Shown: positions 6,930-44,619 of the stretch, one piece after another | Numbering within the stretch: the stretch's first letter is position 1 | Layout of the letters: every line of letters begins with the position of its first letter | NCBI GenBank assembly: GCA_021735655.1 | Contig: JAIPGM010000002.1 | Location: 256,001-320,000, forward strand | DNA: 64,000 nucleotides | DNA from: Candidatus Omnitrophota bacterium | Lineage (GTDB): Bacteria > Omnitrophota > Gorgyraeia > Duberdicusellales > 4484-171 | Reading direction: 5' to 3' | The notes under the pieces: model-generated | Seen by the model: the letters and a program-made list of their open reading frames with translations, nothing else | Databases searched by the model: none | What the model was told of the DNA's origin: nothing | Program-made: the position numbers and the translations under genes

Positions 6930-9900
6930 TTATACCACTTTCTTCTGTTCCTCAATTATTTTTTGGGCTATTTCCTTTGGTACCTGGGTGTACTTTTTAA
7001 AATGCATTGAGCAACTTGCCCGGCCACTAGATAAAGACCTAAGATTGGTTACGTAACCAAACATTTCCGAAAGTGGAGCCTCAGCCGAAATTAGCTTTTG
7101 GTTACCTTTTGAATCCATACCTAAAATTTTCCCCCGACGCGCACAAAGATAACCAACAATACCACTAGTATGCTCTTCTGGAGTAAGTACTTCCAAGCTC
7201 ATGCAAGGCTCAAGAAGAACCGGACTCGCTTTTAAAAAAGCGTTTTTAAAGCAAGTTCTTGCAGCAATTTTAAACGCTAACTCTGAAGAATCAACTTCAT
7301 GGTATGAACCATCAACGAGCTTTACCTTAACATCGACCACCGGATAACCGGCATAAGAACCTTTTTTCATTGCTTCAATAATACCTTTCTCAACTGCCGG
7401 TATATAGTTTTTAGGTATTGCTCCACCTTTAATGCTATCTTTAAATTCAAAACCAGCAGCTTCTTCATTAGGAGAAAGCTCAATCGCTACGTGGCCGTAT
7501 TGGCCTCTGCCTCCGCTTTGCTTAGCATGTTTATACTCTTCGCTAGTAGACTGAAGGATTGTTTCTTTATAGGCAACTTTAGGCTGACCGGCCTGCGCTG
7601 AAACCTTAAATTCTTCCTTCAAACGTTCAACGATTATTTCAAGATGTAATTCTCCCATACCAGAAAGAATTGTTTCAGAGGTTTCCTCGTCGGTATGAGC
7701 GTTAAAAGTGGGGTCTTCTTCTGCTAGTTTAGCTAAACCCTTGGCCATCCTATCCTGATCGGAACGACTCTCCGGTTTTATGCTGATTGAAACGACTGGC
7801 TCAGAAAATTCAATTGACTCAAGTAATATTGGATTTTGAATGTCAGAGAGTGTATCGCCGGTTAAAGTGGAACTGAGACCGACAATTGCCGCAATATCAC
7901 CGGCAAACACTGCGTCAACATTTTCTCGTTGGTTAGCATGCATTCGAACAATTCTCCCGATACGCTCTTTTTTATTTTTAGTTGCATTTAAAACATAAGT
8001 TCCGGCCCTTAAGCATCCCGAATAGATTCGAGCATAGATCAATTTACCTACATGCTGGTCAGCTTGGACCTTAAAAGCAAGCGCTGAAAAAAATTCATCA
8101 TCTTGAGGCTTACGTTCCAAGCTTTTTTCTTTATCATCGGGGTCAGAACCAATAACTGGCGGAATTTCAGCCGGAGAAGGTAGATAGGCAACAACTGCAT
8201 CAAGCAAGTCTTGAACACCCTTATTTTTTAATGCTGACCCGCAAAAAACCGGAACAATCTTATTTGAAACTGTAGCTTTGCGCAAAGCCTCAGTCAGATC
8301 GTCTTTGCTGATTGACTCCTCTGACTGTAAGTATTTTTCCATTAATTTACCATCATAAGAGGCTACCCGATCAACCAAACTATGGCGGTATCTTTGAGCG
8401 ATTTCTTTATAGCTTTCATGAATATCTTCCGACCTAATATCTTTGCCTAAGGATTCGTCATTATAAAGATGCATTTTCATATTAATAAGATCAATTATGC
8501 CTTTAAAGTCACCTTCCTTACCGATCGGTATCTGTAAGGCAACTGGTTTAGCCCCAATAGTATTTTCGATCTCTTCTAAAACCTTAAAAAAATCAGCCCC
8601 GACCCGATCCATTTTATTTATAAAGGCTATCTTCGGTACATGATATTTATCCGATTGGCGCCATACGGTTTCAGTTTGAGACTCTACTCCTCCCACCGCA
8701 CAAAATACAGCAACTGCCCCATCTAGGACCCTTAACGATCTTTCAACTTCAGCGGTAAAATCAACGTGGCCGGGGGTATCAATAATAGTAATTTGGCAAT
8801 CTTTCCAACTACAAGTGGTTGCAGCTGAAGTTATAGTTATACCTCTTTCCTGTTCTTGTTTCATCCAATCCATCTGAGCTGCCCCGTCATGAACTTCGCC
8901 GATTTTGTGCGACCGGCCGGTATAGAAAAGAACTCTTTCAGTAAGAGTAGTTTTCCCAGCATCAATATGGGCCATAATCCCAATATTACGGATCTTGCCC
9001 AGTTCTATTTTTCTCTCCGGCAGTGGCTCCTCTACTTTTTTTACTGCTTCAGGCTTAGGCTCGGCTTGTATTTCTGGTTCTTGAGCCGATAGCTCCGGAG
9101 TCACTTCTTCACTTGCGGTTTCAGGTTGCCCTTGGGTCAAATCTTTAGTTTCACCTTCCTGCCCTTGGATTAAAGATTCGTCTTCCTTTAGCGATTCTTT
9201 ATCTGAAGGTAACTCTTCAAATTCCTTAGTTTCTGAAATAGGTTCACTTGGCTGCGCCTGAACTAACTCATTCTCAAGATTGGAAGATTCTTTTTGAGAA
9301 TCACCGTCCTCAATTAAAAGAATATCTGCTAACTCATCGTCCTTAATAACGCCGCTTCGTTTAATCTCGCGTAATTTATTAAGAATACGAATCCGCTCCT
9401 GATCAATTTTTTCGATATCTTTACCTTTTAGCTCCAACTCCTTAGATTTAATCTCTAACTCATTTTTTAATTCTTCACTTTGTTCTTCTAAAAGAGAGTA
9501 CTCTTCTTTAGATACCCATTCGCTTTGACGTTGTTTTTCTTTCATTTGAGCAACTTCAGCAGCATGTGCGACAGTTTCTTTAGATAGCTGGTGCATTCTT
9601 TGAGTCTGATCTTTTAGCTCACTTTCCAAAGAAATAATCTTATCTTTCAATTGATTGATATTGACTTCACGAATTTTGATTACTTCTTCAGCTTGATCAA
9701 GTTCTTTTTTAAACTGCACACTCCGGGAAAACTCTTTCTCTAAATCCTTTTCCTTAGTAATCAATTTAACTCTCAAAGCCTCATAGGGACCTTTTCCTTT
9801 TTTCAAAGTAAGCTGCTGACTATTAAGCCATTTTTTATTGCGGTTAATTTCCTCGCCCAATTCTTTAGCCTTGAGGCTAAGCTTTTGATGCTCATCTTGC

Positions 9901-10139
9901 AAGCTGAGATACTCAGCCTGAGTTTTTGTTAAGGCGACAATTTCATTTTTTAATTTTGTTAGTTCCCTTTTTGAAGATTTAAGGTTTTCTGACAAGGCAG
10001 AAATTTTTTGTTGTTGCAAGTCAGGCTTAAGGCCAAACTTTGTACCCAGAGTACCTTTTAAAACTGAATCATCTTCGTTGTTAACTAAATACAGTACTAG
10101 GGCAATCGATACTCCAATTACAACAAAAATTAAAGTCAT
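6930..10139 (-). CDS. Elongation factor G paralog with a ~390-aa N-terminal extension (TM anchor + long coiled coil + acidic linker)
   Basis: The 1069-aa ORF is continuous. Residues 1-22 form a TM helix ([21 protein letters not shown]). Residues ~40-260 form a K/E/L/Q heptad-rich coiled coil. Residues ~260-390 are an acidic E/S/P/Q-rich linker. From [27 protein letters not shown]...[25 protein letters not shown] onward it is a full-length EF-G (G domain through domain V, ~678 aa). The ATG at 10139 has a TGnTATAAT element 6 nt upstream and no SD. There is no in-frame stop between the extension and the EF-G body. Confidence 0.8.
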
Positions 10140-28559: not shown

Positions 28560-30056
28560 CTAGAAAAAGAGATCTCTTTCGCCTTCTTTAATCCTTCGAT
28601 AATAACTCATGAATTGGTCAAAAACCTGAGGGATGTTTTTGCGGACTTCCTCTATTTCTTTCGTGATTACTTTCTCAGCTATATTTTTAGTTTCCTCGCT
28701 GGCAAAATCATCTAACCATTCACGAAAAGTTAAAACAGCATTTAATTTACAAAATTTACCTTCTTGACCAGTTTTAAGTAACTCCATAATGCATTCACCC
28801 GTTCTGCCGCAGCGATAACCAGCAGTACAAAAAGAACTGATTACCCCCATTGAGGCAAACTCTCTAATCATCTCATCTAGGCTACGAGTATCAGCCAAAA
28901 TAAATTGCTGTCGGGGGCTGTCTTGAGTTTTACTCTGATCGCTGTATGAACCAATTCCTATTTTGGTAGAAGCATCAGTTTGAGTTATTCCTAGCCTGAT
29001 TGAATCTCTCTTCATCTGAGGGGTTTCCCGACAAGTAATAATTAGACCAGTATGAGGCACAGCCAGTCTAAGCACAGTAATTAACTTTTTAAACTGCTGA
29101 TCCGAAACCTTATATTTTAAATTATCATTAAAAGGCGTGTTTTCTGCCGGTTCAAGGCGTGGAAAAGATATCGTATGAGCTCCGACACCAAATTTATCCT
29201 CTAATTCACGATTATGCGCAACCAAGCTCATTAGCTCAAACTTCCAATCGTAAAGCCCAAATAAAACACCCAAGCCAACATCATCAACCCCAGCCTCAAA
29301 GGCACGATGCATCGCATAAAGTCGCCAGAAGTAATTTCCTTTTATTGTAGTTGGCGGATGAATAGTTTTATAGGTGGTCTTATGGTAAGTCTCTTGGAAA
29401 ACTTGATAGGTACCAATTCCGACATCTTTTAGACGACCCAATTCCTCTATCGATAAGGGCGGAGCATTCACATTTACCCGACGAATCTGACCAACGCCAT
29501 TTTTGGTTTTCTCCCGAACATTATAAATAGTACGAATTGAATCAACCATGTAATTTATATCATTCGAAGGATGCTCTCCATAAACGACAATTAAACGTTT
29601 ATGACCAATCTTACCAGCCAAAACAGCGGTTTCCTTCTCAACCTGCTTTAAGCTTAAGACTCGGCGTTCACTCTTTGTGTTAGATCGTCTGAAACCACAA
29701 TAAAGACAATCATTAACACAATAATTCCCAAGATAAAGCGGAGCAAAGGTGACGATTCGATTGTCATAAACCTTTCGCTTCACCCTTAAGGCGCATTCCT
29801 TCATCAATTCTAATGTTTTAGAATCAGTTACCCTTAAAAGGGTTGCCGTCTCATCAAGAGTTAAAGTTTTAATCGCTAAGGATTTATTTAAAATGTCTTC
29901 GACTTCTTTGGAATCAGGCTCCTGAGTGCATGATAATTTCGTAAAGATTTCTTTCTGAGGAATAAAATCCTTACCCTCAATCATATAACGCTCAATTTGG
30001 TCGCGCTTTATACGTTGAGACTCCCAACTCTGAAATTTATTAGTCTTAATTAACAT
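28560..30056 (-). CDS. hydG: HydG-family radical SAM tyrosine lyase ([FeFe]-hydrogenase maturase homolog)
   Basis: A 498-aa ORF with the motif CVNDCLYC (Cx3Cx2C) inside FAPLYLGNYCVNDCLYCGFR. Further HydG-diagnostic blocks are GHKRLIVVYGEHP, RRVNVNAPP, GIGTYQVFQETYH, DDVGLGVLFGLYDWKFE and FGVGAHTISFPRLEPA. The C-terminal auxiliary-cluster region FCTAGYRCGRTGEC...(x)...C aligns with the HydG CxxCx22C motif CTACYR-GRTG...C. The second Cys is replaced by Gly, and extra Cys residues sit at +6 and +12. Confidence 0.8.
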   Translation of the reverse strand: MLIKTNKFQSWESQRIKRDQIERYMIEGKDFIPQKEIFTKLSCTQEPDSKEVEDILNKSLAIKTLTLDETATLLRVTDSKTLELMKECALRVKRKVYDNRIVTFAPLYLGNYCVNDCLYCGFRRSNTKSERRVLSLKQVEKETAVLAGKIGHKRLIVVYGEHPSNDINYMVDSIRTIYNVREKTKNGVGQIRRVNVNAPPLSIEELGRLKDVGIGTYQVFQETYHKTTYKTIHPPTTIKGNYFWRLYAMHRAFEAGVDDVGLGVLFGLYDWKFELMSLVAHNRELEDKFGVGAHTISFPRLEPAENTPFNDNLKYKVSDQQFKKLITVLRLAVPHTGLIITCRETPQMKRDSIRLGITQTDASTKIGIGSYSDQSKTQDSPRQQFILADTRSLDEMIREFASMGVISSFCTAGYRCGRTGECIMELLKTGQEGKFCKLNAVLTFREWLDDFASEETKNIAEKVITKEIEEVRKNIPQVFDQFMSYYRRIKEGERDLFF

Positions 30057-30698
30057 CTAACTTCCCTGCTTTACAAAAAATATTAAACTCTCTAACTCAC
30101 AAGCCATATCAACGTTAGAAACAAATATATTATCAGGAACTTTCAAGGCAATTGGAGCGAAGTTAAGTATTCCCTTAATATTTGAATCGATTAACTGGTT
30201 AGCTATGTCTTGAGCTACTTCAGGCGGCGTAGCTATTATTGCTATTTTTATTCCATCTTTTTTAATCATTTCACTCAAATTATCAATAGCCTGAACTACG
30301 ATACCTTTTTTTGTTTTACCAATCTTTTTCTGATCATTATCAAAAATTGCAGTAATTTTTATATTAAACTTTGAAAAACCATCGAACCCCAACAAGGCCC
30401 CACCGACTCTACCTAGGCCTACCAAAGCAATATTCCAATCAATATGGGTTCCGACTATTTTTTGGATTTGTCCAATTAAAAAATCTACGTTATAGCCCAC
30501 ACCGCGCTTGCCAAATTCACCAAAATAAGACAAATCCTTTCTAAACTGAGACGGAGTTACGTTTAAAAACTTAGTTATTTTATCCGAAGAAATAACTTCA
30601 ACTCCCTGCTTTTTTATTTTTCGTAAGTTACGTAAATACAGAGTAAGCCTTCTGATCGTTTCCAAAGAAAAATGTTTCTTGTCTTTACTGTTTTTCAT
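30057..30698 (-). CDS. rex: Redox-sensing transcriptional repressor Rex
   Basis: A 213-aa ORF with a winged helix (ITKFLNVTPSQFRKDLSYFGEFGKRGVGYNV) and an NADH-binding Rossmann fold (IALVGLGRVGGALLGF). Confidence 0.85.
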   Translation of the reverse strand: MKNSKDKKHFSLETIRRLTLYLRNLRKIKKQGVEVISSDKITKFLNVTPSQFRKDLSYFGEFGKRGVGYNVDFLIGQIQKIVGTHIDWNIALVGLGRVGGALLGFDGFSKFNIKITAIFDNDQKKIGKTKKGIVVQAIDNLSEMIKKDGIKIAIIATPPEVAQDIANQLIDSNIKGILNFAPIALKVPDNIFVSNVDMACELESLIFFVKQGS

Positions 30699-32016
30699 CA
30701 GATACTCTAGTATCCCGAGCTATACCTAAATCGGTAGGCGCCCGGCCTAAAGATTTAAGTAAATTAATAGTCTCAGTAATCTGATCATTAATCTCCGCTT
30801 CGCCATAGGCCTTATTAGGATAAATTGCATAATACTTTCGATATTTACGCGGAGTTAAATTGAGCATTACCGAATTTCCACCCGAAGACAATCCTTTCTT
30901 GCGTGCCTCTAAAGATAAGGTCTCAAAGGCTGTGGTTATAAGAATTTTAGCCGCTTCTGGATCGATTAAACGAGCCAAAGCAAGGTTTTTTAAAACTTCT
31001 TCTTCAGAAGGAGCTTTGCAATTGGCCAAGAGACTATTCGGGTGAGGCAAAAATGGCCCAAATGAGTACATCTCAGAGCCCAAAGCCTTAGTTAGATAAA
31101 TATCATTTATCGTATCTTGATTAGTTTGACCAGGCAAACCAATCAAGGCACCAGTCATAACTAAATACCCTAATTCATGGGCTTTTTTTAGATGATCCAG
31201 GCGACTATCTAAAGTTTGGCCAGGATGTAATTTCTCATAGATTTTAGGATTTGAAGTTTCAAAACGCATCAACAATGCTCTTGCCCCAGCCTGATAAAGC
31301 TTAAGCAATCCATCAAGCCCGACTTCACCAAAGCTTATACAAATCAAAACTGGAACCGTTTCTTTAATTTTTCTTATAATTTCCGCTAGATCATCTATGC
31401 TATAGTGTGGGTCTTCTCCCGATTGCAAAACTAAAGCCTGGAAACCATACTCTTTAACGGCACCAACTGCCGTCTCAATGATTTCCGCCGCTGACATTCG
31501 ATAACGCATAAGATTCTGGTTGTCAGCTGAAATACCACAATATTGACAACTCTGCTTACAAAAATTAGATATTTCGATTATCCCATGAATACAACATGAA
31601 TTTTTATGGTACTTTTGACGCAAAAAGTTAGCGGTTCGATAAAGAATATCTTGAGCCTCAGGCTTATCTAACTTAAGTAAATAAAATAACTCTTCTTTAC
31701 TCAATTGAATATTTTCTAAAGCTTTATCTAAAATAAGACTTAGCTGCCTGTCGATATTTTTTTTGCTAAGATCCAAGCGAGACAATCGTAAGTCCATATC
31801 CTGAAGTTCGAAAAAAAGCTCATTCCAAGCTGCCAAGGTCTCCTCAGCCTCCTTTGGGGAAACTTTTTTAATTACAAACCCGCCTTGAGCCGACACATAA
31901 TCACCGGGTTTGATATCATAAAACTCATTGATTGCTTTTTTTTCTTCACCAAAGTAATCAACCAGAACGGTTTTCCCAACTATTTCTTTTACCTTGCCAG
32001 GTATTGCATAACACAT
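30685..32016 (-). CDS. HypC/HupF-like domain fused to a HydE-family radical SAM enzyme
   Basis: The N-terminal ~75 aa begin MCYAIPGKVKEIVGK...GDYVSAQGGFVI...EAEETLAAWNELF, which carries the HypC signature (MC-x-IP, essential Cys2). The start is taken as the second Met so that Cys is residue 2. The remainder is a radical SAM with CKQSCQYC and HydE-like blocks (IIEISNFC, YRMSAAEI, LVLQSGEDP, GLPGQT, GPFLPHP, YAIYPNK). Confidence 0.8.
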   Translation of the reverse strand: MCYAIPGKVKEIVGKTVLVDYFGEEKKAINEFYDIKPGDYVSAQGGFVIKKVSPKEAEETLAAWNELFFELQDMDLRLSRLDLSKKNIDRQLSLILDKALENIQLSKEELFYLLKLDKPEAQDILYRTANFLRQKYHKNSCCIHGIIEISNFCKQSCQYCGISADNQNLMRYRMSAAEIIETAVGAVKEYGFQALVLQSGEDPHYSIDDLAEIIRKIKETVPVLICISFGEVGLDGLLKLYQAGARALLMRFETSNPKIYEKLHPGQTLDSRLDHLKKAHELGYLVMTGALIGLPGQTNQDTINDIYLTKALGSEMYSFGPFLPHPNSLLANCKAPSEEEVLKNLALARLIDPEAAKILITTAFETLSLEARKKGLSSGGNSVMLNLTPRKYRKYYAIYPNKAYGEAEINDQITETINLLKSLGRAPTDLGIARDTRVSDEKQ

Positions 32017-32030
32017 AACAAACTCCAATT

Positions 32031-32273
32031 TTACTCTACATCAAACGATAGCACCTGTATCACTGTTCCCGGGAAAAAAGTTAGCTCTAGCTCAGCCTTA
32101 GCACAAGGAGTCCCCTCAGCTAAAATTTTAAAGGTTTCTCTAAATGAATCCTCCTTGATCCCGTTCAGCTCACCGATTTTTATATGTATCTTAGACACTA
32201 CCTTTGAGCCTTCTTTTTCAGCGTGTTCACAAATTCCTTTAATCAATGGTTTTATGATATGGGTTTCGTGCAT
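32031..32273 (-). CDS. hypA: HypA-like nickel metallochaperone lacking the zinc-finger domain
   Basis: An 80-aa ORF starting with MHE, the HypA Ni-binding N-terminus, and ending in the HypA-like VIQVLSFDVE. The two CxxC pairs of canonical ~113-aa HypA are absent. Confidence 0.55.
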   Translation of the reverse strand: MHETHIIKPLIKGICEHAEKEGSKVVSKIHIKIGELNGIKEDSFRETFKILAEGTPCAKAELELTFFPGTVIQVLSFDVE

Positions 32274-32728
32274 GTTTTTACCTCAATAATTAAATTAGTT
32301 AATTCCTTTAATGTTTTAGCAACACTTTGTGAAATCTCATCACCAAACTCAAGAGTTTTCGGTTGCACCCCTAAAAGAAAAATATCAGCTTCGGTTTCTT
32401 TACCCAAAAAATCTAAAAACATCCTTGGTGATAAATCATGAGTAGTGAATCCCGATTTCACGATATCTTCCTTAACTAAAATCTCATAATCTCCTGGCTC
32501 TTTACCAAGATCAACAACATCAACTATTAAAATCGTATTTGGACGTTCTTTGGTTATTTTGCCAATATAGTTTTCTGGTGCTGAACCAACATCAATACAG
32601 GTTGCATCCACTTTCTGGTAAACAGTCTCAATGAACTTAGGACCGAAAGCATCGTCACCACGCATAATATTTCCTACCCCAACGATAACGACTTTCCCTT
32701 TAAAAACATTCCGAAAAATATTATTCAT
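32252..32728 (-). CDS. hycI: Hydrogenase maturation endopeptidase (HycI-type)
   Basis: A 158-aa ORF with VVIVGVGNIMRGDDAFGP and a conserved His/Asp pattern. Its short length fits the HycI subtype that serves group-4 hydrogenases. Confidence 0.8.
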   Translation of the reverse strand: MNNIFRNVFKGKVVIVGVGNIMRGDDAFGPKFIETVYQKVDATCIDVGSAPENYIGKITKERPNTILIVDVVDLGKEPGDYEILVKEDIVKSGFTTHDLSPRMFLDFLGKETEADIFLLGVQPKTLEFGDEISQSVAKTLKELTNLIIEVKTCTKPIS

Positions 32729-32768: not shown

Positions 32769-33380
32769 TTACTCAGCAGTAAGGGTGGTTTCACGTCGAC
32801 AGCGGGCGCATAGAATCTTAACTCGATCAGAACGCCCATCATCCCTTAAAGCTGAAACAATATTTTCATCTACAATACCAAGACTTTTAAGATGGGAAAG
32901 ATAAAGCGTAGGACTTGAGTAGGTAAGCTCACCTAATTTTTGAGAAATCCATTTAAGGTGATCTTTGCAGGCTATTACATCGCCGCAAACTTCACAAAGT
33001 TGTAGTTCTTTTTCTATTTGTTCTTGGGCTTGAGCGCGGTCAAAAAATGATAACTCCCAATCAGTAGATAACTTAATACCTTGCTTATCAGCCAAACAGG
33101 CTGCTTCACACTGTCCACAAAAAATACAAGTATCAGTATAATGAATCATCAGCCGCTTAGGATCATCTTTATTTTCAGTAATATCCTTATGAGAAATCGC
33201 TTCAACTGGGCAAACCTCTTCACAACCGCAACAACCAACACATTTTTGATCATTAAACTTCGGCTGACCGCGAAAGTTAGGATGAGCCACATGGGCCTCT
33301 TTAGGGAACTTTGACGTGTAAGGCCCCTTAATCAATGCCTTGATTGCTTCAACCAACTCTCTTAATTTTGGCAACTTCAT
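32769..33380 (-). CDS. 2x[4Fe-4S] ferredoxin subunit of group-4 hydrogenase (NuoI/HycF/MbhN-like) with a Cys-rich C-terminal extension
   Basis: CVGCCGCEEVCP and CIFCGQCEAAC are followed by a ~90-aa tail containing CEVCG...C and CARC. Confidence 0.8.
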   Translation of the reverse strand: MKLPKLRELVEAIKALIKGPYTSKFPKEAHVAHPNFRGQPKFNDQKCVGCCGCEEVCPVEAISHKDITENKDDPKRLMIHYTDTCIFCGQCEAACLADKQGIKLSTDWELSFFDRAQAQEQIEKELQLCEVCGDVIACKDHLKWISQKLGELTYSSPTLYLSHLKSLGIVDENIVSALRDDGRSDRVKILCARCRRETTLTAE

Positions 33381-37533: not shown

Positions 37534-39192
37534 TTACTTTAAAAGTATATAAAAAAGTATCCCCATACCTAAAAGACACCAGGACAAATAAGTAGATAAA
37601 ATGCCATTATGCAAATAACGCAAAATACTGTTAAAGCCAAAAGTAATTTTACTACCGACTTCATAAATATCGAATAATTTCTTATTAGCTAAACTATAGA
37701 TAACCTTTAACAGGCCCAACTCTTTGATTGTGTTATAAAAATCAGTTCCTGAAACTCTCATCTCGGGATATTTTTCAGTGCTTTCTCCGCCCATAAAAAT
37801 ATTAACCTGGCGACTCTTTGAAACTGTGCCCAAAAGATAAACTATTAGACCAATGACCATGCCAGCAAGAATCAAAGCCGTAGCTAAACTTGCATTCCAG
37901 ACTCCGGAAAACTCTACTGGCTGCCAAATAACCGGAAAGATAAAAAACTTAAGCGGAAGCCGGTAAGCAAATACACCAAAAACTACACATAGTAAGGCTA
38001 AAATTGCTCCCGGTATCCACATCGCTAGCCCAACCTCTTTTTTCTGATCTTTACTGAGTGCTTTTACGGTTGTGCTTTCTTGACCCAAAAATACAGCATG
38101 AACAAGTTTCATGAAACTTGCCAAAGTTAAGGCACTTCCAAACATGGCTGAAACTAACCAAACGACCCATAACCCACCACTGTTTTTAGCCGTCTCAATG
38201 ATACCCTGGTAGATCATCCATTTAGAAACAAAACCATTAAATGGCGGAACCCCAGAGATAGCAAATGAAGCAATCAAAAAAGTAATAAAAGTAATCGGCA
38301 TATATTTAGCAAGACCGCCAAGTTTATCTAAATTAGTAGTTTTGGTCCTTTTTTCTACAGAGCCACTGGTTAAAAATAAACAAGACTTATAAATCGCATT
38401 ATTCAGCATATGAAATAGTCCACCGGCAATACCGATAATTGTACCCGTACCAATACCTAAAATCATATAACCAACTTGACTTACCGCATGATAACCAAGG
38501 AGTCTCTTTAAGTCATGTTGGACTAAAGCCATCATAACCGCAGCTATAATAGTAAAGCTACCGATAAACATCAAAAATGTATTCATGCTTAAACCTAAAC
38601 GAAACATTTCCAAGGAAATTCTAATTAAAAGATATATTCCCAAAAGTTTGTCCAAAGAAGCAGGCAAATAAGCCGCAACCGGAGTTGGTGAGTCTTCAGC
38701 TGCGTCAGGAACCCAGGTATGAAAAGGCATAGCCCCGGCTTTAGCAAAAGCTCCGACCGCCAAACAAAGATAGGCAAAAGTAGCCACCTTAGAAGTCAAT
38801 GGTATTGATATTAAATCCATCTCGAATAAACCGGTAAGTTTCCAAATTAAGGCAACTCCCAAAAGCATTAAAGCATCGGTTCCACCAATTATAATAAATG
38901 CTTTCTTTGCCGTAGCTGAGCTATTATCCTTTTTACCAAAGCCAATTAAAAGATAAAGAAGCAACCCCAAGAATCCCCAGAAAACCATGAACAGAATTAA
39001 ATTATTGGCAAAAACCACACCCAAAGAAGCAATCAAAGTAAAAAAGATATAAAGGTAGTAACGTGAAATTCCACGTTGGGCACGCATGTACCCCATCGAA
39101 TATACAGTTACCAAAATAGAAAAAAACCAAATAAATATTCCGACAAATATCGACAAAGCATCAAATCTAAAATAATTCGCTAAAAAATTCAT
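37534..39192 (-). CDS. Mrp subunit D / NuoL-like antiporter membrane subunit (MbhH-like)
   Basis: A 552-aa ORF with the NuoL/M/N family core. Confidence 0.8.
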   Translation of the reverse strand: MNFLANYFRFDALSIFVGIFIWFFSILVTVYSMGYMRAQRGISRYYLYIFFTLIASLGVVFANNLILFMVFWGFLGLLLYLLIGFGKKDNSSATAKKAFIIIGGTDALMLLGVALIWKLTGLFEMDLISIPLTSKVATFAYLCLAVGAFAKAGAMPFHTWVPDAAEDSPTPVAAYLPASLDKLLGIYLLIRISLEMFRLGLSMNTFLMFIGSFTIIAAVMMALVQHDLKRLLGYHAVSQVGYMILGIGTGTIIGIAGGLFHMLNNAIYKSCLFLTSGSVEKRTKTTNLDKLGGLAKYMPITFITFLIASFAISGVPPFNGFVSKWMIYQGIIETAKNSGGLWVVWLVSAMFGSALTLASFMKLVHAVFLGQESTTVKALSKDQKKEVGLAMWIPGAILALLCVVFGVFAYRLPLKFFIFPVIWQPVEFSGVWNASLATALILAGMVIGLIVYLLGTVSKSRQVNIFMGGESTEKYPEMRVSGTDFYNTIKELGLLKVIYSLANKKLFDIYEVGSKITFGFNSILRYLHNGILSTYLSWCLLGMGILFYILLK

Positions 39193-40376
39193 TTTATGCC
39201 TAGTTTACTTTTTATCTTTTCGGTTTTACTTTGTGAAAGGCGAACTAAATCCTCACCGTTATATATTTTTTTACCCTTAGTGTTACGTACCGCCACTCTC
39301 TCAGTACAACAATAACAAGGATCAATGGACGCTAAAATTATCGTTGCATCAGAAATCGTCTCGCCAACCACAGTTGCCTTATAGGTCGGTAAATTCATAA
39401 AAGTAGGTGCTCTTACTTTGTGACGAGCCGGTCGATTGGTCCCATCGCTTTTCACATAATGAAAACATTCACCCCGCGGCGCCTCAATATGACCGATACC
39501 TTCACCTGAAGGAATACTTTTAATCTTAGCATCAATTTCTGTATCCGGAAGGTTTAAAAGGCAATACTTAACCATATCTATCGATTCAAAAGTCTCTAAA
39601 ATTCTTACTACCGCTTTATCGAAAACATCGCCATTTTTAGTCACAATCATATTCCAGTTAAACTGATCATATGCCCCATAAGGAGAATTTTTACGTAGAT
39701 CTCTGGCCACCCCCGAAGCCCGAGATACCGGACCGAGAGCACAAAAGTTAATTGCCTCATCCTTAGTGAGGATACCTATTCCTTTAGTCCTAGCATGTAA
39801 CACCGGGTCATCGATTACTGCCTTTTTAAGCATTTCAAGAGTCGGGATAATCGAATCTATCTTTTTTATCGCAAAAGGTATATCTTCTTTTTTTATGTCT
39901 CGCCGAACCCCTCCCGGCTTAAACATAGCATAGTTGTTGCGATTTCCCGAAAGTGCCTCCATAACATCAAGGATTTCCTCACGCAACTTCCAAGCCCACA
40001 TATAAACAGTATTGTAACCTAAAAAATGTCCGGCAAGACCCAACCATAAAAGATGTGAATGAATACGTTCTCCCTCAGCGATAATTGTTCGGATATATTT
40101 AGCCCTCATTGGCACTTCTAGAGGGATAACATCCTCAACTGCCCGAGTATAAGCATAAGGATGACTGGTTGAACAAATACCACAGATTCTCTCAATTACA
40201 AAAGTAGATTGGTCGAAGGTTTTTCGCTCAGAAAGCTTTTCAATGCCGCGATGGTTATAACCAATCTGAACATCGATATCAACAACTGTCTCCCCATCTA
40301 CAGTTAAGCTGAAAAACTCAGGCTCTTCCTGTAAAGGGTGATATGGTCCGATTGGAACTATAGTTCGTTTTCCCAT
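39189..40376 (-). CDS. [NiFe] hydrogenase large (catalytic) subunit, group 4 (NuoD/EchE/MbhL-like)
   Basis: The L1 motif RICGICSTSH (RxCGxCxxxH) is near the N-terminus. The L2 motif DPCYCCTER (DPCxxCxxR, the Arg form typical of group 4) is near the C-terminus. A ~30-aa tail follows, as expected for a HycI-processed precursor. Confidence 0.9.
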   Translation of the reverse strand: MGKRTIVPIGPYHPLQEEPEFFSLTVDGETVVDIDVQIGYNHRGIEKLSERKTFDQSTFVIERICGICSTSHPYAYTRAVEDVIPLEVPMRAKYIRTIIAEGERIHSHLLWLGLAGHFLGYNTVYMWAWKLREEILDVMEALSGNRNNYAMFKPGGVRRDIKKEDIPFAIKKIDSIIPTLEMLKKAVIDDPVLHARTKGIGILTKDEAINFCALGPVSRASGVARDLRKNSPYGAYDQFNWNMIVTKNGDVFDKAVVRILETFESIDMVKYCLLNLPDTEIDAKIKSIPSGEGIGHIEAPRGECFHYVKSDGTNRPARHKVRAPTFMNLPTYKATVVGETISDATIILASIDPCYCCTERVAVRNTKGKKIYNGEDLVRLSQSKTEKIKSKLGIK

Positions 40377-42776: not shown

Positions 42777-43601
42777 CTAATCCCAAATATTAGGAAAATT
42801 CTTTATTTTGTCGTAAGTAAACACTGGTCCATCTTTGCAGGCATAATAAGTCCCTAGCCGACAATGACCGCATTTACCAATTCCACAAGACATATTTTTT
42901 TCCATTGAAAGATAGATATTCTTCTCCTTAAAACCCAACTCAAGCAATTTTTTAGTAGAAAACTTCATGGCGATTGGCGGCCCGCAAACAATAGCTATTG
43001 CCTCAGGGCAATTCATATCTAAATCATCCAAAATTGTAGTAACAACACCTACGTTACCTTTCCAATCAGGGCTAGCTTTATCAACAGTAAGTCTTAAATT
43101 TAAATCATCTCGCTTTGCCCAGCCGGCTATCTCAGTTTTATAGAGTAGCTCCTGTGAGGTTTTACAGCCACCCCGAAAAGACAGCTTCTTAAACTCCCCG
43201 CTTCGGGCAAAAAACTCATACATCAAACTACGCAAAGGAGCAAATCCACATCCACCACCGACGACAACGATTTCCTTACCTTTAAATTCATCAATCGGGT
43301 AACCAGTCCCAAAAGGGCCTCTCACTCCAATCAAATCGCCTTTTTTAAGCTGATGAACTTTATCGGTAACCTTGCCAACTTTCATTACCGTGACTTCCAT
43401 TACATCTCTCACTGATGGCCTCGATGAAGGTGTAAATGGCGCCTCACCCACGCCGGGAACAGTTAATTCGATAAATTGACCGGTCTCAAAACCCAAAGGC
43501 TCTTTAGGACGAAAACGTATGGTTTTAATCGTTGGCGTTTCGGTTATTACATCAAGAACTTCGGCCTCAATCGATCTGTAAGGATTCTCGATTTTATGCA
43601 T
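42777..43601 (-). CDS. FAD/NAD(P)-binding oxidoreductase with a C-terminal [2Fe-2S] (sulfhydrogenase gamma / PyrK / AsrB-like)
   Basis: A ferredoxin-NADP reductase-like fold (RFRPK, GQFIEL, VVVGGGCGFAPL) and a C-terminal CGIGKCGHCRLG...C. Confidence 0.75.
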   Translation of the reverse strand: MHKIENPYRSIEAEVLDVITETPTIKTIRFRPKEPLGFETGQFIELTVPGVGEAPFTPSSRPSVRDVMEVTVMKVGKVTDKVHQLKKGDLIGVRGPFGTGYPIDEFKGKEIVVVGGGCGFAPLRSLMYEFFARSGEFKKLSFRGGCKTSQELLYKTEIAGWAKRDDLNLRLTVDKASPDWKGNVGVVTTILDDLDMNCPEAIAIVCGPPIAMKFSTKKLLELGFKEKNIYLSMEKNMSCGIGKCGHCRLGTYYACKDGPVFTYDKIKNFPNIWD

Positions 43602-44619
43602 TATCCACCAACTTCTTTAAGACTTTTCGAATATCAATTTTAGCCGGGCAAGCTGTTATACAACGGCCACAGCCGGTACAAGCATACTCAGCGGCCACCT
43701 TGGGAAAAAAATCAAATTTTTTCTCAAACCTATTACGCAATCTCATCCAAAGCCTCTCTCGAGGATTGGCTCCGCCAGCAACCCGAGCAAAATCTTTTAT
43801 CATACAAGAATCCCAAATGCGTAAACGCTCCATCTTGTCTTTATCTTTTTGATCATACAAAAGAAAACAATGGCAGGTTGGGCAAATTGCATTACAGGCT
43901 CCACATTCAACGCAAGTTTTTGCTTCGTCTTCCCAAATTTTAGACTCATAGTTTTTCTGAACCACATCTTTGAAGCTGCTTTGGTCAGGAACGGTATTTT
44001 TACTTAGGTTAGCGTTAGCTTCTCCAGTTATTTTTTCACGCTTCTTATCTCTGGTAACAACTAGATCTTCTCGAGTTTGACGAAAAAGAAGAGTATATTG
44101 CTTCAGAATACTCTCACCTTTATCGGATCCGCTTTCAACAACAAAGCCATCATCAACCACAGAAAGATTTAGATCAAAATTATCTTTAGGATACGGTTTT
44201 AGACCTAAAGCCGCACAAAAGCAAGTATCAATTACGCAAGTGCAATCAGCTGAAATAATAAGGCTATCCTGACGTAACTTTAAATAAAAAGGATCCTGAT
44301 AATCGGGATTATCAAAAACATAGTCTTGAATTTTAAAACCTTTCAGATCACAAGCCTTGACTCCGACAATAGCAAAAGGCTTACTCGGAGACTGCGGAAG
44401 ATCCGGACTAAAACCAGAAGCTACCTTCTGACGAGCCTTCAAAAAAAATGATTTTACCGGCTCAAAAGCCCTTACCTCGCCAACAACGAATTCACTAGTC
44501 GAGCTATCGAACTTATCGTAAAACCGCTGCTGACCTTTTTTGACCGGAACAAATACCTGATAATCTTTATTTAGGTTTTCAAGAAATTTAGAAAAATTAT
44601 CGGAAGAGATATAATACAT
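43594..44619 (-). CDS. [4Fe-4S]-binding sulfhydrogenase beta / AsrA-like subunit
   Basis: CVECGACNAICPTCHC and CTGCGRCITACP. The ~340-aa length is typical of HydB/AsrA. Confidence 0.7.
   Translation of the reverse strand: MYYISSDNFSKFLENLNKDYQVFVPVKKGQQRFYDKFDSSTSEFVVGEVRAFEPVKSFFLKARQKVASGFSPDLPQSPSKPFAIVGVKACDLKGFKIQDYVFDNPDYQDPFYLKLRQDSLIISADCTCVIDTCFCAALGLKPYPKDNFDLNLSVVDDGFVVESGSDKGESILKQYTLLFRQTREDLVVTRDKKREKITGEANANLSKNTVPDQSSFKDVVQKNYESKIWEDEAKTCVECGACNAICPTCHCFLLYDQKDKDKMERLRIWDSCMIKDFARVAGGANPRERLWMRLRNRFEKKFDFFPKVAAEYACTGCGRCITACPAKIDIRKVLKKLVDNA

What the first reader, a model, noticed from the sequence alone, without database searches (positions are those of the whole stretch)
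32031..32273. HypA homolog missing its zinc-finger domain
Canonical HypA has an N-terminal MHE nickel site plus a structural Zn(Cys)4 site from two CxxC pairs. This 80-aa ORF keeps MHE and the C-terminal beta-strand (VIQVLSFDVE) but has no CxxC pairs at all. Either it is a minimal Ni chaperone that works without the HypB-docking Zn domain, or it is a degenerate gene. It overlaps hycI by 22 nt and abuts the HypC-HydE gene.
Basis: partly seen in the sequence, partly recalled or inferred. Interest (0 to 1): 0.5.

Follow-up and report, generated by a model that had tools for sequence, protein, structure and literature searches.

The report
Mini HypA lacking its zinc finger
This is a real, strongly conserved 80-residue version of the nickel chaperone HypA, which loads nickel into [NiFe] hydrogenases; it has cleanly lost its zinc-finger domain, and similar versions occur in many uncultivated bacteria, although reviews state that every HypA has this zinc site.

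Summary
Window 32031..32273 (-) encodes an 80-aa protein that starts with MHE and has no CxxC. It overlaps hycI by 22 nt and ends 14 nt before a HypC::HydE-like gene.

It is a HypA nickel-binding domain with the ~33-residue zinc ribbon removed in frame. Pfam HypA scores 54.8 bits (cut-off 28.9). The AF2 model has pLDDT 90.6, and Foldseek gives TM 0.90 to T. kodakarensis HypA.

It is neither a frameshift nor a decaying gene:
- No CxxC occurs in any of the six frames.
- More than 150 protein clusters and 80 GTDB species (mostly Omnitrophota/Auribacterota) keep almost exactly 80 aa.
- dN/dS is about 0.10-0.15, and 17 residues are invariant, including M1, H2, E3 and H5.

The order MbhN-HycI-HypA80, behind a group-4 Mbh/Mrp hydrogenase, is almost universal. 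No hypB lies within 10 kb in any of the 80 loci. Some genomes also carry a full-length zinc-finger HypA beside an Ech-type hydrogenase.

At least 46 further 50%-identity clusters are also zinc-less. One of them, in Spirochaetota MAGs, sits directly upstream of hypB.

Best reading: a functional, hydrogenase-specific mini nickel chaperone, that is, a new variant of a known kind.

A side observation may matter more. In this lineage HydG plus HypC::HydE occupy the slot that HypF-C-D-E holds in sister lineages.

The parts
32031..32273 (-). Mini-HypA: 80 aa, the Ni-binding domain only. It has the N-terminal MHETH motif and no Zn(Cys)4 ribbon.
   Evidence: ORF. Pfam HypA 54.8 bits against a cut-off of 28.9. 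AF2 pLDDT 90.6. Foldseek 3a43_B TM 0.90. Clean 33-column gap against full-length HypAs. dN/dS about 0.1.
32280..32284 (-). Shine-Dalgarno sequence GAGGT, 6 nt upstream of the hypA ATG and inside the 3' end of hycI. This suggests translational coupling.
   Evidence: Read directly from the sequence.
32252..32728 (-). HycI-type hydrogenase maturation endopeptidase. It overlaps hypA by 22 nt. Together with hypA it forms the constant partner module.
   Evidence: Pfam HycI 64.3 bits. TIGR00072 103 bits against a cut-off of 47.45. Found upstream of hypA80 in 78 of 80 related loci.
39189..40376 (-). [NiFe] large subunit of the Mbh/Mrp-type group-4 hydrogenase, the presumed nickel recipient. It carries CGIC near the N-terminus, and DPCYCCTER followed by a 35-residue C-terminal extension.
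   Evidence: Translation. Pfam Complex1_49kDa plus NiFeSe_Hases.
32769..33380 (-). MbhN-like 2x[4Fe-4S] subunit, immediately upstream of hycI. It has a C-terminal extension with an extra conserved CxxC...CxxC.
   Evidence: Pfam Fer4 families. C129, C132, C191 and C194 are 100% conserved in 75 homologues.
30685..32016 (-). HypC domain (residues 1-~76) fused to a HydE-like radical SAM enzyme. It starts 14 nt after the hypA stop codon.
   Evidence: Pfam HupF_HypC plus Radical_SAM. TIGR03956 HydE 248.9 bits against a cut-off of 254.6, and TIGR00074 HypC 43.3 bits. tblastn with HypC hits 32016-31816.
30057..30698 (-). Rex-type redox-sensing repressor, lying between the two radical SAM genes.
   Evidence: Pfam Put_DNA-bind_N plus CoA_binding. 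The same position is kept in many related loci.
28560..30056 (-). HydG-type radical SAM enzyme, the last gene of the maturation block.
   Evidence: TIGR03955 rSAM_HydG 448.5 bits against a cut-off of 312.15.

Best explanation
The ORF encodes a functional 'mini-HypA': the nickel-binding domain of the [NiFe]-hydrogenase nickel metallochaperone, from which the inserted Zn(Cys)4 ribbon has been excised in frame. It is the dedicated nickel-insertion factor for the adjacent Mbh/Mrp-type group-4 hydrogenase.

Proposed mechanism (the mechanism is inferred; the anatomy is shown):
1. Ni(II) is bound at the N-terminus by the Met1 amine, the His2 amide and imidazole, and Glu3.
2. The family-invariant His5 (MHETH) is the likely extra ligand. 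It would replace the histidine that canonical HypA borrows from its Zn-domain region (T. kodakarensis His98).
3. The small alpha/beta domain docks on the N-terminal tail of the immature large subunit and delivers Ni once the Fe(CN)2CO unit is in place.
4. HycI, which appears translationally coupled to hypA, then removes the 35-residue C-terminal extension.

The Zn domain is therefore dispensable for this hydrogenase. The chaperone may work without a dedicated HypB, or with one encoded elsewhere.
For: Shown here:
- Pfam HypA scores above its cut-off.
- The AF2 model is confident (pLDDT 90.6; helix 4-21, strand 26-34, helix 41-52, strands 61-67 and 72-79). It superposes on T. kodakarensis HypA across the gap left by the Zn domain (TM 0.90, rmsd 1.8), and the top 14 PDB hits are all HypA.
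- The deletion is clean and in frame, and the C-terminal strand is retained.
- Invariant residues are M1 H2 E3 H5 I7 P9 H17 E21 K32 G34 S43 F48 L51 T55 F67 S76 F77. No Cys is conserved.
- dN/dS is 0.10-0.15 in every dS bin.
- The gene has a Shine-Dalgarno sequence and a 22-nt overlap with hycI.
- The order MbhN-HycI-HypA80 is kept in 78 of 80 GTDB species loci, whatever follows downstream.
- The large subunit has intact CGIC and DPCYCC motifs plus a cleavable extension, so Ni insertion and HycI processing are needed.
- In L020, L027 and L031 a full-length 111-113-aa HypA with two CxxC pairs sits beside an Ech-type hydrogenase. This points to paralogues specialised per hydrogenase.
- His5 is present in 21 of 46 Zn-less cluster representatives against 5 of 58 full-length ones (Fisher p = 2e-5).

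From the literature:
- The nM Ni site of T. kodakarensis HypAB uses the N-terminal amine, His2 and His98.
Against: - There is no biochemical evidence that this protein binds nickel or delivers it.
- It fails the NCBIfam HypA equivalog cut-off (47.3 against 88.1 bits).
- In H. pylori, mutating the Zn-site cysteines cuts hydrogenase activity to 9-60% of wild type, and a 2026 paper calls the Zn site essential for partner interactions. Loss of the domain might therefore be expected to be harmful.
- The role proposed for His5 rests on a correlation. The listed hits were ranked by a profile that itself contains His5, and the clusters are not phylogenetically independent.
- Absence of HypB was shown only for the 64-kb window and for +-10 kb around 80 loci, not for whole genomes.
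- A few relatives have lost the MHE motif (P0122, P0125, P0129), so the fold can persist without the Ni motif.
Confidence: 0.7

Rival explanations
1. The gene is a degenerate remnant of hypA, on its way to being lost after the Zn finger was deleted.
For: It lacks a domain that reviews describe as universal. It also falls below the NCBIfam equivalog cut-off.
Against: The 80-aa length is kept in more than 150 90%-identity clusters and 80 GTDB species. Seventeen columns are invariant. dN/dS is about 0.10-0.15 with synonymous sites near saturation. The Shine-Dalgarno sequence is intact and the gene overlaps hycI.
Confidence: 0.03
2. The short ORF is an artefact: a sequencing or assembly frameshift, or an internal deletion, truncates a normal hypA.
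For: The window comes from a metagenome-assembled genome.
Against: No CxxC occurs in any of the six frames over 31940-32340. Only 14 nt separate the stop codon from the next gene. The C-terminal strand is in frame. The same 80-aa architecture appears in hundreds of independent assemblies from NCBI, JGI, ENA and Logan.
Confidence: 0.01
3. The protein keeps the HypA fold but no longer carries nickel. [quoted passage not shown] Nickel would arrive by another route or unassisted.
For: The gene is tightly coupled to hycI rather than to any NTPase. No hypB lies nearby. Some relatives have lost MHE (P0122 MYKVD, P0125 MSDTA, P0129 MSDHL). In E. coli HypA is described as a scaffold on the large subunit. 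High nickel can bypass HypAB in the laboratory.
Against: M1, H2 and E3 are invariant and T4 and H5 are invariant or nearly so in 36 of 36 diverse family members. This is hard to explain unless the N-terminal metal site is under selection.
Confidence: 0.12
4. The system is split. The function of the lost Zn ribbon is supplied in trans, for example by the conserved CxxC...CxxC extension at the C-terminus of the MbhN-like subunit encoded just upstream, or by another small Zn-ribbon protein.
For: The MbhN-like protein has C129xxC132 and C191xxC194, 100% conserved in 75 homologues, in addition to the eight Cys of its two [4Fe-4S] clusters. Its gene directly precedes hycI-hypA.
Against: The spacing (CxxC-x58-CxxC) is unlike the HypA ribbon, where the two pairs are roughly 12-20 residues apart. 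No similarity between the two was detected. Zn-less HypAs also occur next to Hox-type hydrogenases, which have no MbhN. The extra cysteines may simply bind a further Fe-S cluster.
Confidence: 0.05

Closest known systems
HypA of Thermococcus kodakarensis (PDB 3A43/3A44; complexes 5AUN with HypB-AT and 5YXY/5YY0 with HyhL)
   Same: Both have the N-terminal MHE motif and the same Ni-domain fold: two helices packed on a three-stranded sheet that includes the C-terminal strand. Foldseek gives TM 0.90 normalised to the query. phmmer gives E = 2e-4 over residues 1-64. Both are encoded with a group-4 or group-3 [NiFe] hydrogenase maturation set.
   Different: The T. kodakarensis protein has 139 aa, with a Zn(Cys)4 domain inserted between strand 2 and the last strand. 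Its nM Ni site in the HypAB complex uses His98, which by residue numbering lies in the part missing here (the numbering argument is my inference). The window protein has no Cys4 site, and carries His5 instead as a family-invariant extra histidine.
E. coli HypA / HybF paralogue pair
   Same: Paralogous HypAs are dedicated to different hydrogenases in one cell. Here, some genomes carry a short HypA beside the Mbh/Mrp enzyme and a full-length HypA beside an Ech-type enzyme.
   Different: Both E. coli paralogues keep the Zn finger and work with HypB and SlyD. The Mbh-linked paralogue here has lost the Zn finger, and no hypB is nearby.
Zn-less 80-aa HypA of Spirochaetota MAGs (P0152 clade, loci L006/L007)
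   Same: Same 80-aa architecture: MHE start, no CxxC, C-terminal strand retained.
   Different: It is only about 36% identical to the window protein, has Ser rather than His at position 5, and sits in a canonical hypA-hypB-hypF-hypC-hypD-hypE cluster next to hoxFUYH. The window clade is tied to HycI and an Mbh/Mrp enzyme, with no hypB nearby.
Naturally truncated HypF (Ralstonia eutropha HypF1, recalled from memory, not checked here)
   Same: It is a precedent for a Hyp maturase working after losing 'canonical' N-terminal Zn-finger domains. Sister lineages of the window organism encode a 356-aa HypF that matches only positions 390-740 of TIGR00143.
   Different: It is a different protein with a different chemistry. 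It is cited only as an analogy for domain-minimised maturation factors.

Membership tests
HypA (Pfam PF01155) | Score above the Pfam gathering threshold | tested here: met
   54.8 bits against a cut-off of 28.9, but only profile positions 1-70 of 112 are matched.
HypA (NCBIfam TIGR00100 equivalog) | Score above the curated equivalog cut-off | tested here: not met
   47.3 bits against a cut-off of 88.1, covering profile positions 1-68 of 116. The other HypA equivalog models score 26-30 bits against cut-offs of 112-146.
HypA | N-terminal Met-His-Glu nickel-binding motif at residues 1-3 | tested here: met
   The sequence starts MHE. M1, H2 and E3 are invariant in 36 diverse family members.
HypA | Structural Zn(Cys)4 site formed by two CxxC motifs | tested here: not met
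   No CxxC is present, and the two Cys are not conserved. A 33-column gap replaces the whole ribbon. No CxxC occurs in any of six frames.
HypA | Ni-domain fold: two helices on a three-stranded sheet completed by the C-terminal strand | tested here: met
   AF2 pLDDT 90.6, pTM 0.76. Foldseek 3a43_B TM 0.90, rmsd 1.8, and the top 14 PDB hits are all HypA.
HypA | Encoded with a [NiFe] hydrogenase and its maturation genes | tested here: met
   The gene lies in an operon behind the Mbh/Mrp hydrogenase, overlaps hycI, and is followed by a gene containing HypC. HycI lies upstream in 78 of 80 related loci.
HypA | Works with a HypB-type NTPase (G3E GTPase or Mrp/MinD ATPase) | tested here: inconclusive
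   No HypB lies in the 64-kb window or within +-10 kb of the 80 loci. No conserved P-loop gene lies there either. The rest of these genomes could not be searched. A different Zn-less clade is adjacent to hypB.
HypA | Binds Ni(II) and delivers it to the large-subunit precursor | not testable with these tools
   This needs biochemistry: ITC or XAS, transfer assays, and complementation.

The most novel reading that the evidence does not exclude
Mini-HypA is a self-sufficient nickel chaperone that needs neither zinc nor HypB, and whose M-H-E-x-H N-terminus forms a high-affinity Ni site on its own. Together with HycI it would be the constant core of a streamlined [NiFe] maturation system. In the window's lineage that system has also replaced HypF-C-D-E with radical SAM chemistry (HydG plus a HypC::HydE fusion) to build the Fe(CN)2CO unit. 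This would be a hybrid of the [NiFe] and [FeFe] maturation pathways.
Probability: 0.2. Interest if true: 0.85.

Novelty: new variant of a known kind. Interest (0 to 1): 0.5.

Why it matters
Reviews and a 2026 primary paper describe HypA as always having two metal sites, and call the Zn site stabilising and essential for partner interactions. This gene belongs to a widespread natural class that does without the Zn site:
- 80 GTDB species in this clade alone;
- at least 46 further clusters at 50% identity;
- Omnitrophota, Auribacterota and Spirochaetota MAGs, plus MAGs labelled as several other phyla in their records.

The class is under strong purifying selection. It therefore offers a ready-made natural experiment on three questions: what the Zn domain is for, what the minimal nickel-delivery unit is, and whether an N-terminal His5 can replace the Zn-domain histidine.

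The 80-residue domain would also be a simple part for heterologous hydrogenase maturation.

Finally, the context shows that the nickel branch (HycI plus mini-HypA) stays constant while the Fe-ligand branch is swapped between HypFCDE and HydG/HypC::HydE. That swap bears on the open question of where the CO ligand of anaerobic [NiFe] hydrogenases comes from.

Tried and rejected
- **Frameshift or hidden extension.** I translated all six frames of 31940-32340 and found no CxxC anywhere. Rejected.
- **Second hypA or hypB/D/E/F in the window.** Pfam scans of essentially all ORFs of 90 aa or more, plus tblastn with HypA-full, HypB, HypC, HypD, HypE and HypF queries, found only the one hypA and the one HypC domain.
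- **Exact-sequence look-up of the window protein's own contig.** It is not on record, so the rest of the 322-kb source contig could not be read.
- **Whole-genome search of the complete Omnitrophota chromosomes** (CP070655.1, CP070797.1, CP070684.1, CP070780.1).
- **Organism names for the other Zn-less clades.** The listing of cluster members gave none. A profile search named only Spirochaetota MAGs for one clade.
- **AFDB fold search for named UniProt relatives.** The library was not available.
- **Primary structural papers** (PMC6142260, PMC4485131, PMC3307304). Not held, so the domain-contact statements rest on reviews and, where marked, on memory.
- **Literature searches** for a Zn-less or truncated HypA and for a HypC-HydE fusion. 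Nothing relevant was found.
- **Locus L088 (P0134 clade).** The gene lies at a contig end, so the context is uninformative.
- **Homology between the MbhN C-terminal Cys4 extension and the HypA ribbon.** Considered and rejected because of the spacing.

Full report
**1. Observation**

Window 32031..32273 (-) is an 80-codon ORF encoding MHETHIIKPL...VIQVLSFDVE.
- It has two cysteines (C15, C57) and no CxxC.
- It overlaps the upstream hycI gene (32252..32728) by 22 nt.
- A GAGGT Shine-Dalgarno sequence lies 6 nt before its ATG.
- It ends 14 nt before the ATG (32016) of a gene whose product starts MCYAIPGK, the HypC signature, and continues into a radical SAM domain.

**2. What the protein is**

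- Pfam HypA (PF01155) matches at 54.8 bits against a gathering cut-off of 28.9, but only over profile positions 1-70 of 112.
- The stricter NCBIfam equivalog TIGR00100 scores 47.3 bits, below its cut-off of 88.1.
- phmmer against PDB sequences finds T. kodakarensis HypA over residues 1-64 (E = 2e-4) and H. pylori HypA.
- An AlphaFold2 model built on 36 family members is confident (pLDDT 90.6). Its topology is helix 4-21, strand 26-34, helix 41-52, strands 61-67 and 72-79.
- Foldseek against the PDB returns HypA chains as the top 14 hits. The best is 3a43_B, with TM 0.90 normalised to the query and rmsd 1.8 over an alignment that bridges the Zn domain.
- In a MAFFT alignment with full-length HypAs, a single gap of about 33 columns removes both CxxC pairs and the strands between them. 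This leaves a Pro68-Gly69 junction, and the last strand aligns with the canonical C-terminal strand.

The protein is therefore the HypA nickel-binding domain with the inserted zinc ribbon excised in frame.

**3. Not an artefact and not decaying**

- No CxxC occurs in any of the six frames of 31940-32340, and there is no spare DNA before the next gene.
- The word-indexed search of 5.8 billion proteins found 152 clusters. Nearly all are exactly 80 aa at 59-100% identity, from NCBI, JGI, ENA and Logan assemblies. They are named HypA in MAGs of Candidatus Omnitrophota and Aureabacteria.
- A scan of GTDB species representatives found the gene in 80 species. Most are labelled Omnitrophota. One is Auribacterota, and several carry other phylum labels on the MAG record.
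- Seventeen columns are invariant: M1 H2 E3 H5 I7 P9 H17 E21 K32 G34 S43 F48 L51 T55 F67 S76 F77. Neither cysteine is conserved.
- Nei-Gojobori dN/dS over 68 orthologues is 0.10-0.15 in every dS bin, with a maximum of 0.31.

**4. Genomic context**

In the window the gene lies at the end of a group-4 Mbh/Mrp-type [NiFe] hydrogenase operon. A study of Auribacterota MAGs, one of which carries this mini-HypA (L011), classed their Mbh/Mrp enzyme as group 4g. The window operon comprises:
- an NAD(P)/FAD-type module and a ferredoxin-like gene;
- NuoH-like, 20-kDa, 30-kDa and 49-kDa subunits;
- seven Mrp-like subunits;
- an MbhN-like subunit.

The large subunit has CGIC near the N-terminus, and DPCYCCTER followed by a 35-residue extension. 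It is therefore a true nickel enzyme that needs nickel insertion and proteolytic processing.

Across the 80 GTDB loci, the order MbhN-HycI-HypA80 is almost universal: HycI is present in 78 of 80 and MbhN in 75 of 80. What follows varies:
- 42 loci have a truncated HypF (only the Kae1-like C-terminal domain, TIGR00143 positions 390-740) followed by HypC-HypD-HypE.
- 23 loci, like the window, have HypC::HydE-like (with or without Rex) plus HydG.
- 15 loci have neither; five of them have less than 1.5 kb of sequence downstream.

HycI plus mini-HypA is thus the constant nickel and processing module, whichever way the iron unit is made.

No HypB was found in any of the 80 loci, and no conserved MinD/Mrp-type or G3E P-loop gene either. 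The 64-kb window has none.

Three loci (L020, L027, L031) also encode a full-length 111-113-aa HypA with two CxxC pairs (in L020 the mechanical ORF is 150 aa, with the MHE start at residue 38). In L031 and L020 it sits at the end of an Ech-type hydrogenase cluster, six genes long in L031; in L027 only the large-subunit gene fits on the contig. This looks like the HypA/HybF situation, with paralogues specialised for different hydrogenases.

**5. A wider class**

An exhaustive HMMER search of 1.84 billion cluster representatives with the family profile gave 1974 hits. Among the 150 listed:
- about 46 distinct 50%-identity representatives are complete proteins of 77-91 aa that start with MHE, lack CxxC and end with the C-terminal strand;
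- 58 are canonical proteins of 105 aa or more with two CxxC pairs.

One such clade (P0152), named from Spirochaetota MAGs, lies in hypA80-hypB-hypF-hypC-hypD-hypE next to hoxFUYH. Its HypB scores 259 bits on TIGR00073. Another clade (P0139) lies in HycI-Rex-HypA80.

A Zn-less HypA can therefore be the direct operon partner of HypB. This argues against the Zn domain being an obligatory HypB dock.

**6. Likely mechanism**

*Established background.* HypA binds Ni(II) through the N-terminal amine, His2 and Glu3. The N-terminal tail of the immature large subunit contacts the Ni site of HypA. E. coli HypA binds HycE without HypB or SlyD. In the T. kodakarensis HypAB complex, a nM site forms when His98 joins the N-terminus. 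By residue numbering, His98 lies inside the segment missing here (my inference).

*Inferred model.* Mini-HypA binds nickel at MHE. The invariant His5 would be the extra ligand. It docks on the Mbh large-subunit precursor and hands over nickel, after which HycI cuts the extension.

*Support and caveats for His5.* His5 occurs in 21 of 46 Zn-less representatives against 5 of 58 full-length ones (odds ratio 8.9, p = 2e-5). However, the hit list was ranked by a profile containing His5, and the clusters are not independent.

*Unexplained residues.* The invariant H17 and E21 lie four residues apart on helix 1, away from the N-terminus. They may mark a partner surface or a second metal site.

*HypB.* Whether a HypB acts from elsewhere in the genome is unknown.

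**7. Comparison with the known**

The protein works like HypA and shares the HypA Ni-domain fold, motif and context. It fails one defining feature, the Zn(Cys)4 site, and it fails the NCBIfam equivalog cut-off. It is best filed as a domain-minimised variant of HypA rather than as a canonical member.

[quoted passage not shown] A 2026 paper calls the Zn site stabilising and essential for partner interactions. Searches of the held literature found no description of a Zn-less HypA. All named examples come from MAGs.

**8. Verdict**

The 'minimal chaperone' reading is supported and the 'degenerate gene' reading is rejected. The 'HypB-docking Zn domain' premise is not supported.

Novelty: a new variant of a known kind. 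It is annotated automatically as HypA but apparently not described or studied. Interest is moderate (0.5).

The most striking thing in the neighbourhood is not the HypA itself. It is the mutually exclusive occupation of the downstream slot by HypF-C-D-E or by HydG plus HypC::HydE. I followed this only partly, and it deserves its own analysis.

**9. Limits**

- There is no biochemistry.
- Genomes were visible only within +-10 kb of the gene.
- Statements about which HypA domain contacts which partner rest on reviews and, where marked, on memory.
- The His5 statistic is biased by how the hits were collected.

Noticed in passing
window 28560..32016 (-); loci L008-L087: Across 80 related loci, the slot downstream of hycI-hypA80 holds one of two gene sets. 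42 loci have truncated HypF-HypC-HypD-HypE. 23 loci, including the window, have a HypC::HydE-like radical SAM fusion (TIGR03956, 248.9 bits against a cut-off of 254.6), with or without Rex, plus a HydG that passes its equivalog cut-off (TIGR03955, 448.5 against 312). The two sets never occur together within 10 kb. The window has no HydA, HydF or HypD/E/F. This suggests that a HydG/HydE-type route replaces HypCDEF in making the Fe(CN)2CO of a [NiFe] hydrogenase. No literature on this was found.
   Followed up: partly
window 28560..30056 (-), C-terminal region of HydG: All 21 HydG homologues in these loci share the C-terminal motif FCTAGYRCGRTGxCIM...FCKLNA (Cys-x5-Cys-x5-Cys-x15-Cys). In the canonical HydG auxiliary-cluster motif, recalled from memory as CTACYR...FC, the second Cys sits three residues earlier. 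This may be a distinct HydG subfamily.
   Followed up: partly
window 32769..33380 (-): The MbhN-like 2x[4Fe-4S] subunit has a C-terminal extension of about 100 residues with C129xxC132 (plus C138) and C191xxC194. These are 100% conserved (C138 97%) in 75 homologues. The extension has no Pfam match. It could be an extra Zn ribbon or an Fe-S site, and it lies directly upstream of hycI-hypA.
   Followed up: partly
L001 10255-11325 and 41 other loci: The HypF in sister lineages is only about 356 aa. It matches just positions 390-740 of TIGR00143 (the Kae1-like domain) and lacks the acylphosphatase, Zn-finger and YrdC-like domains. This is another domain-minimised maturase in the same operon.
   Followed up: partly
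L031 10968-11303 (-), L027 2178-2519 (-), L020 18186-18638 (-): These loci carry a second, full-length HypA of 111-113 aa with two CxxC pairs (150-aa mechanical ORF in L020); it also starts MHESH. It lies at the end of an Ech-type hydrogenase cluster (six genes in L031) in genomes that also carry the mini-HypA.
   Followed up: yes
proteins P0122, P0125, P0129: These are 80-81-aa relatives of the mini-HypA family whose N-terminus is MYKVD, MSDTA or MSDHL instead of MHE. The fold appears to be kept while the nickel motif is lost.
   Followed up: no
L016 10247-13012: A single 921-aa ORF follows hypA80 in a complete Omnitrophota chromosome (CP070797.1). It matches both the HydE-like and the HydG queries and may be a HydE-HydG fusion.
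   Followed up: no
L004 10245-10619; L001 2557-3165: The operon has lineage-specific insertions. A 124-aa Pro_CA_2 (carbonic-anhydrase-like) gene lies between hypA80 and HypC::HydE in close relatives of the window organism. A 202-aa PhoU-domain gene lies between the large subunit and the Mrp genes in others. Both are absent from the window.
   Followed up: no
window 42777..44619 (-): The hydrogenase operon begins with a Fer4_22 protein and a protein carrying FAD/NAD-binding and DHODB-type Fe-S domains, followed by a Fer4_11 protein. This looks like a pyridine-nucleotide-linked electron input module attached to an Mbh/Mrp hydrogenase.
   Followed up: no
window 6930..10139 (-): This is an EF-G-like protein of 1069 aa. 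Its GTP_EFTU domain starts only at residue 382, so it carries an N-terminal extension of about 380 residues with no Pfam match.
   Followed up: no
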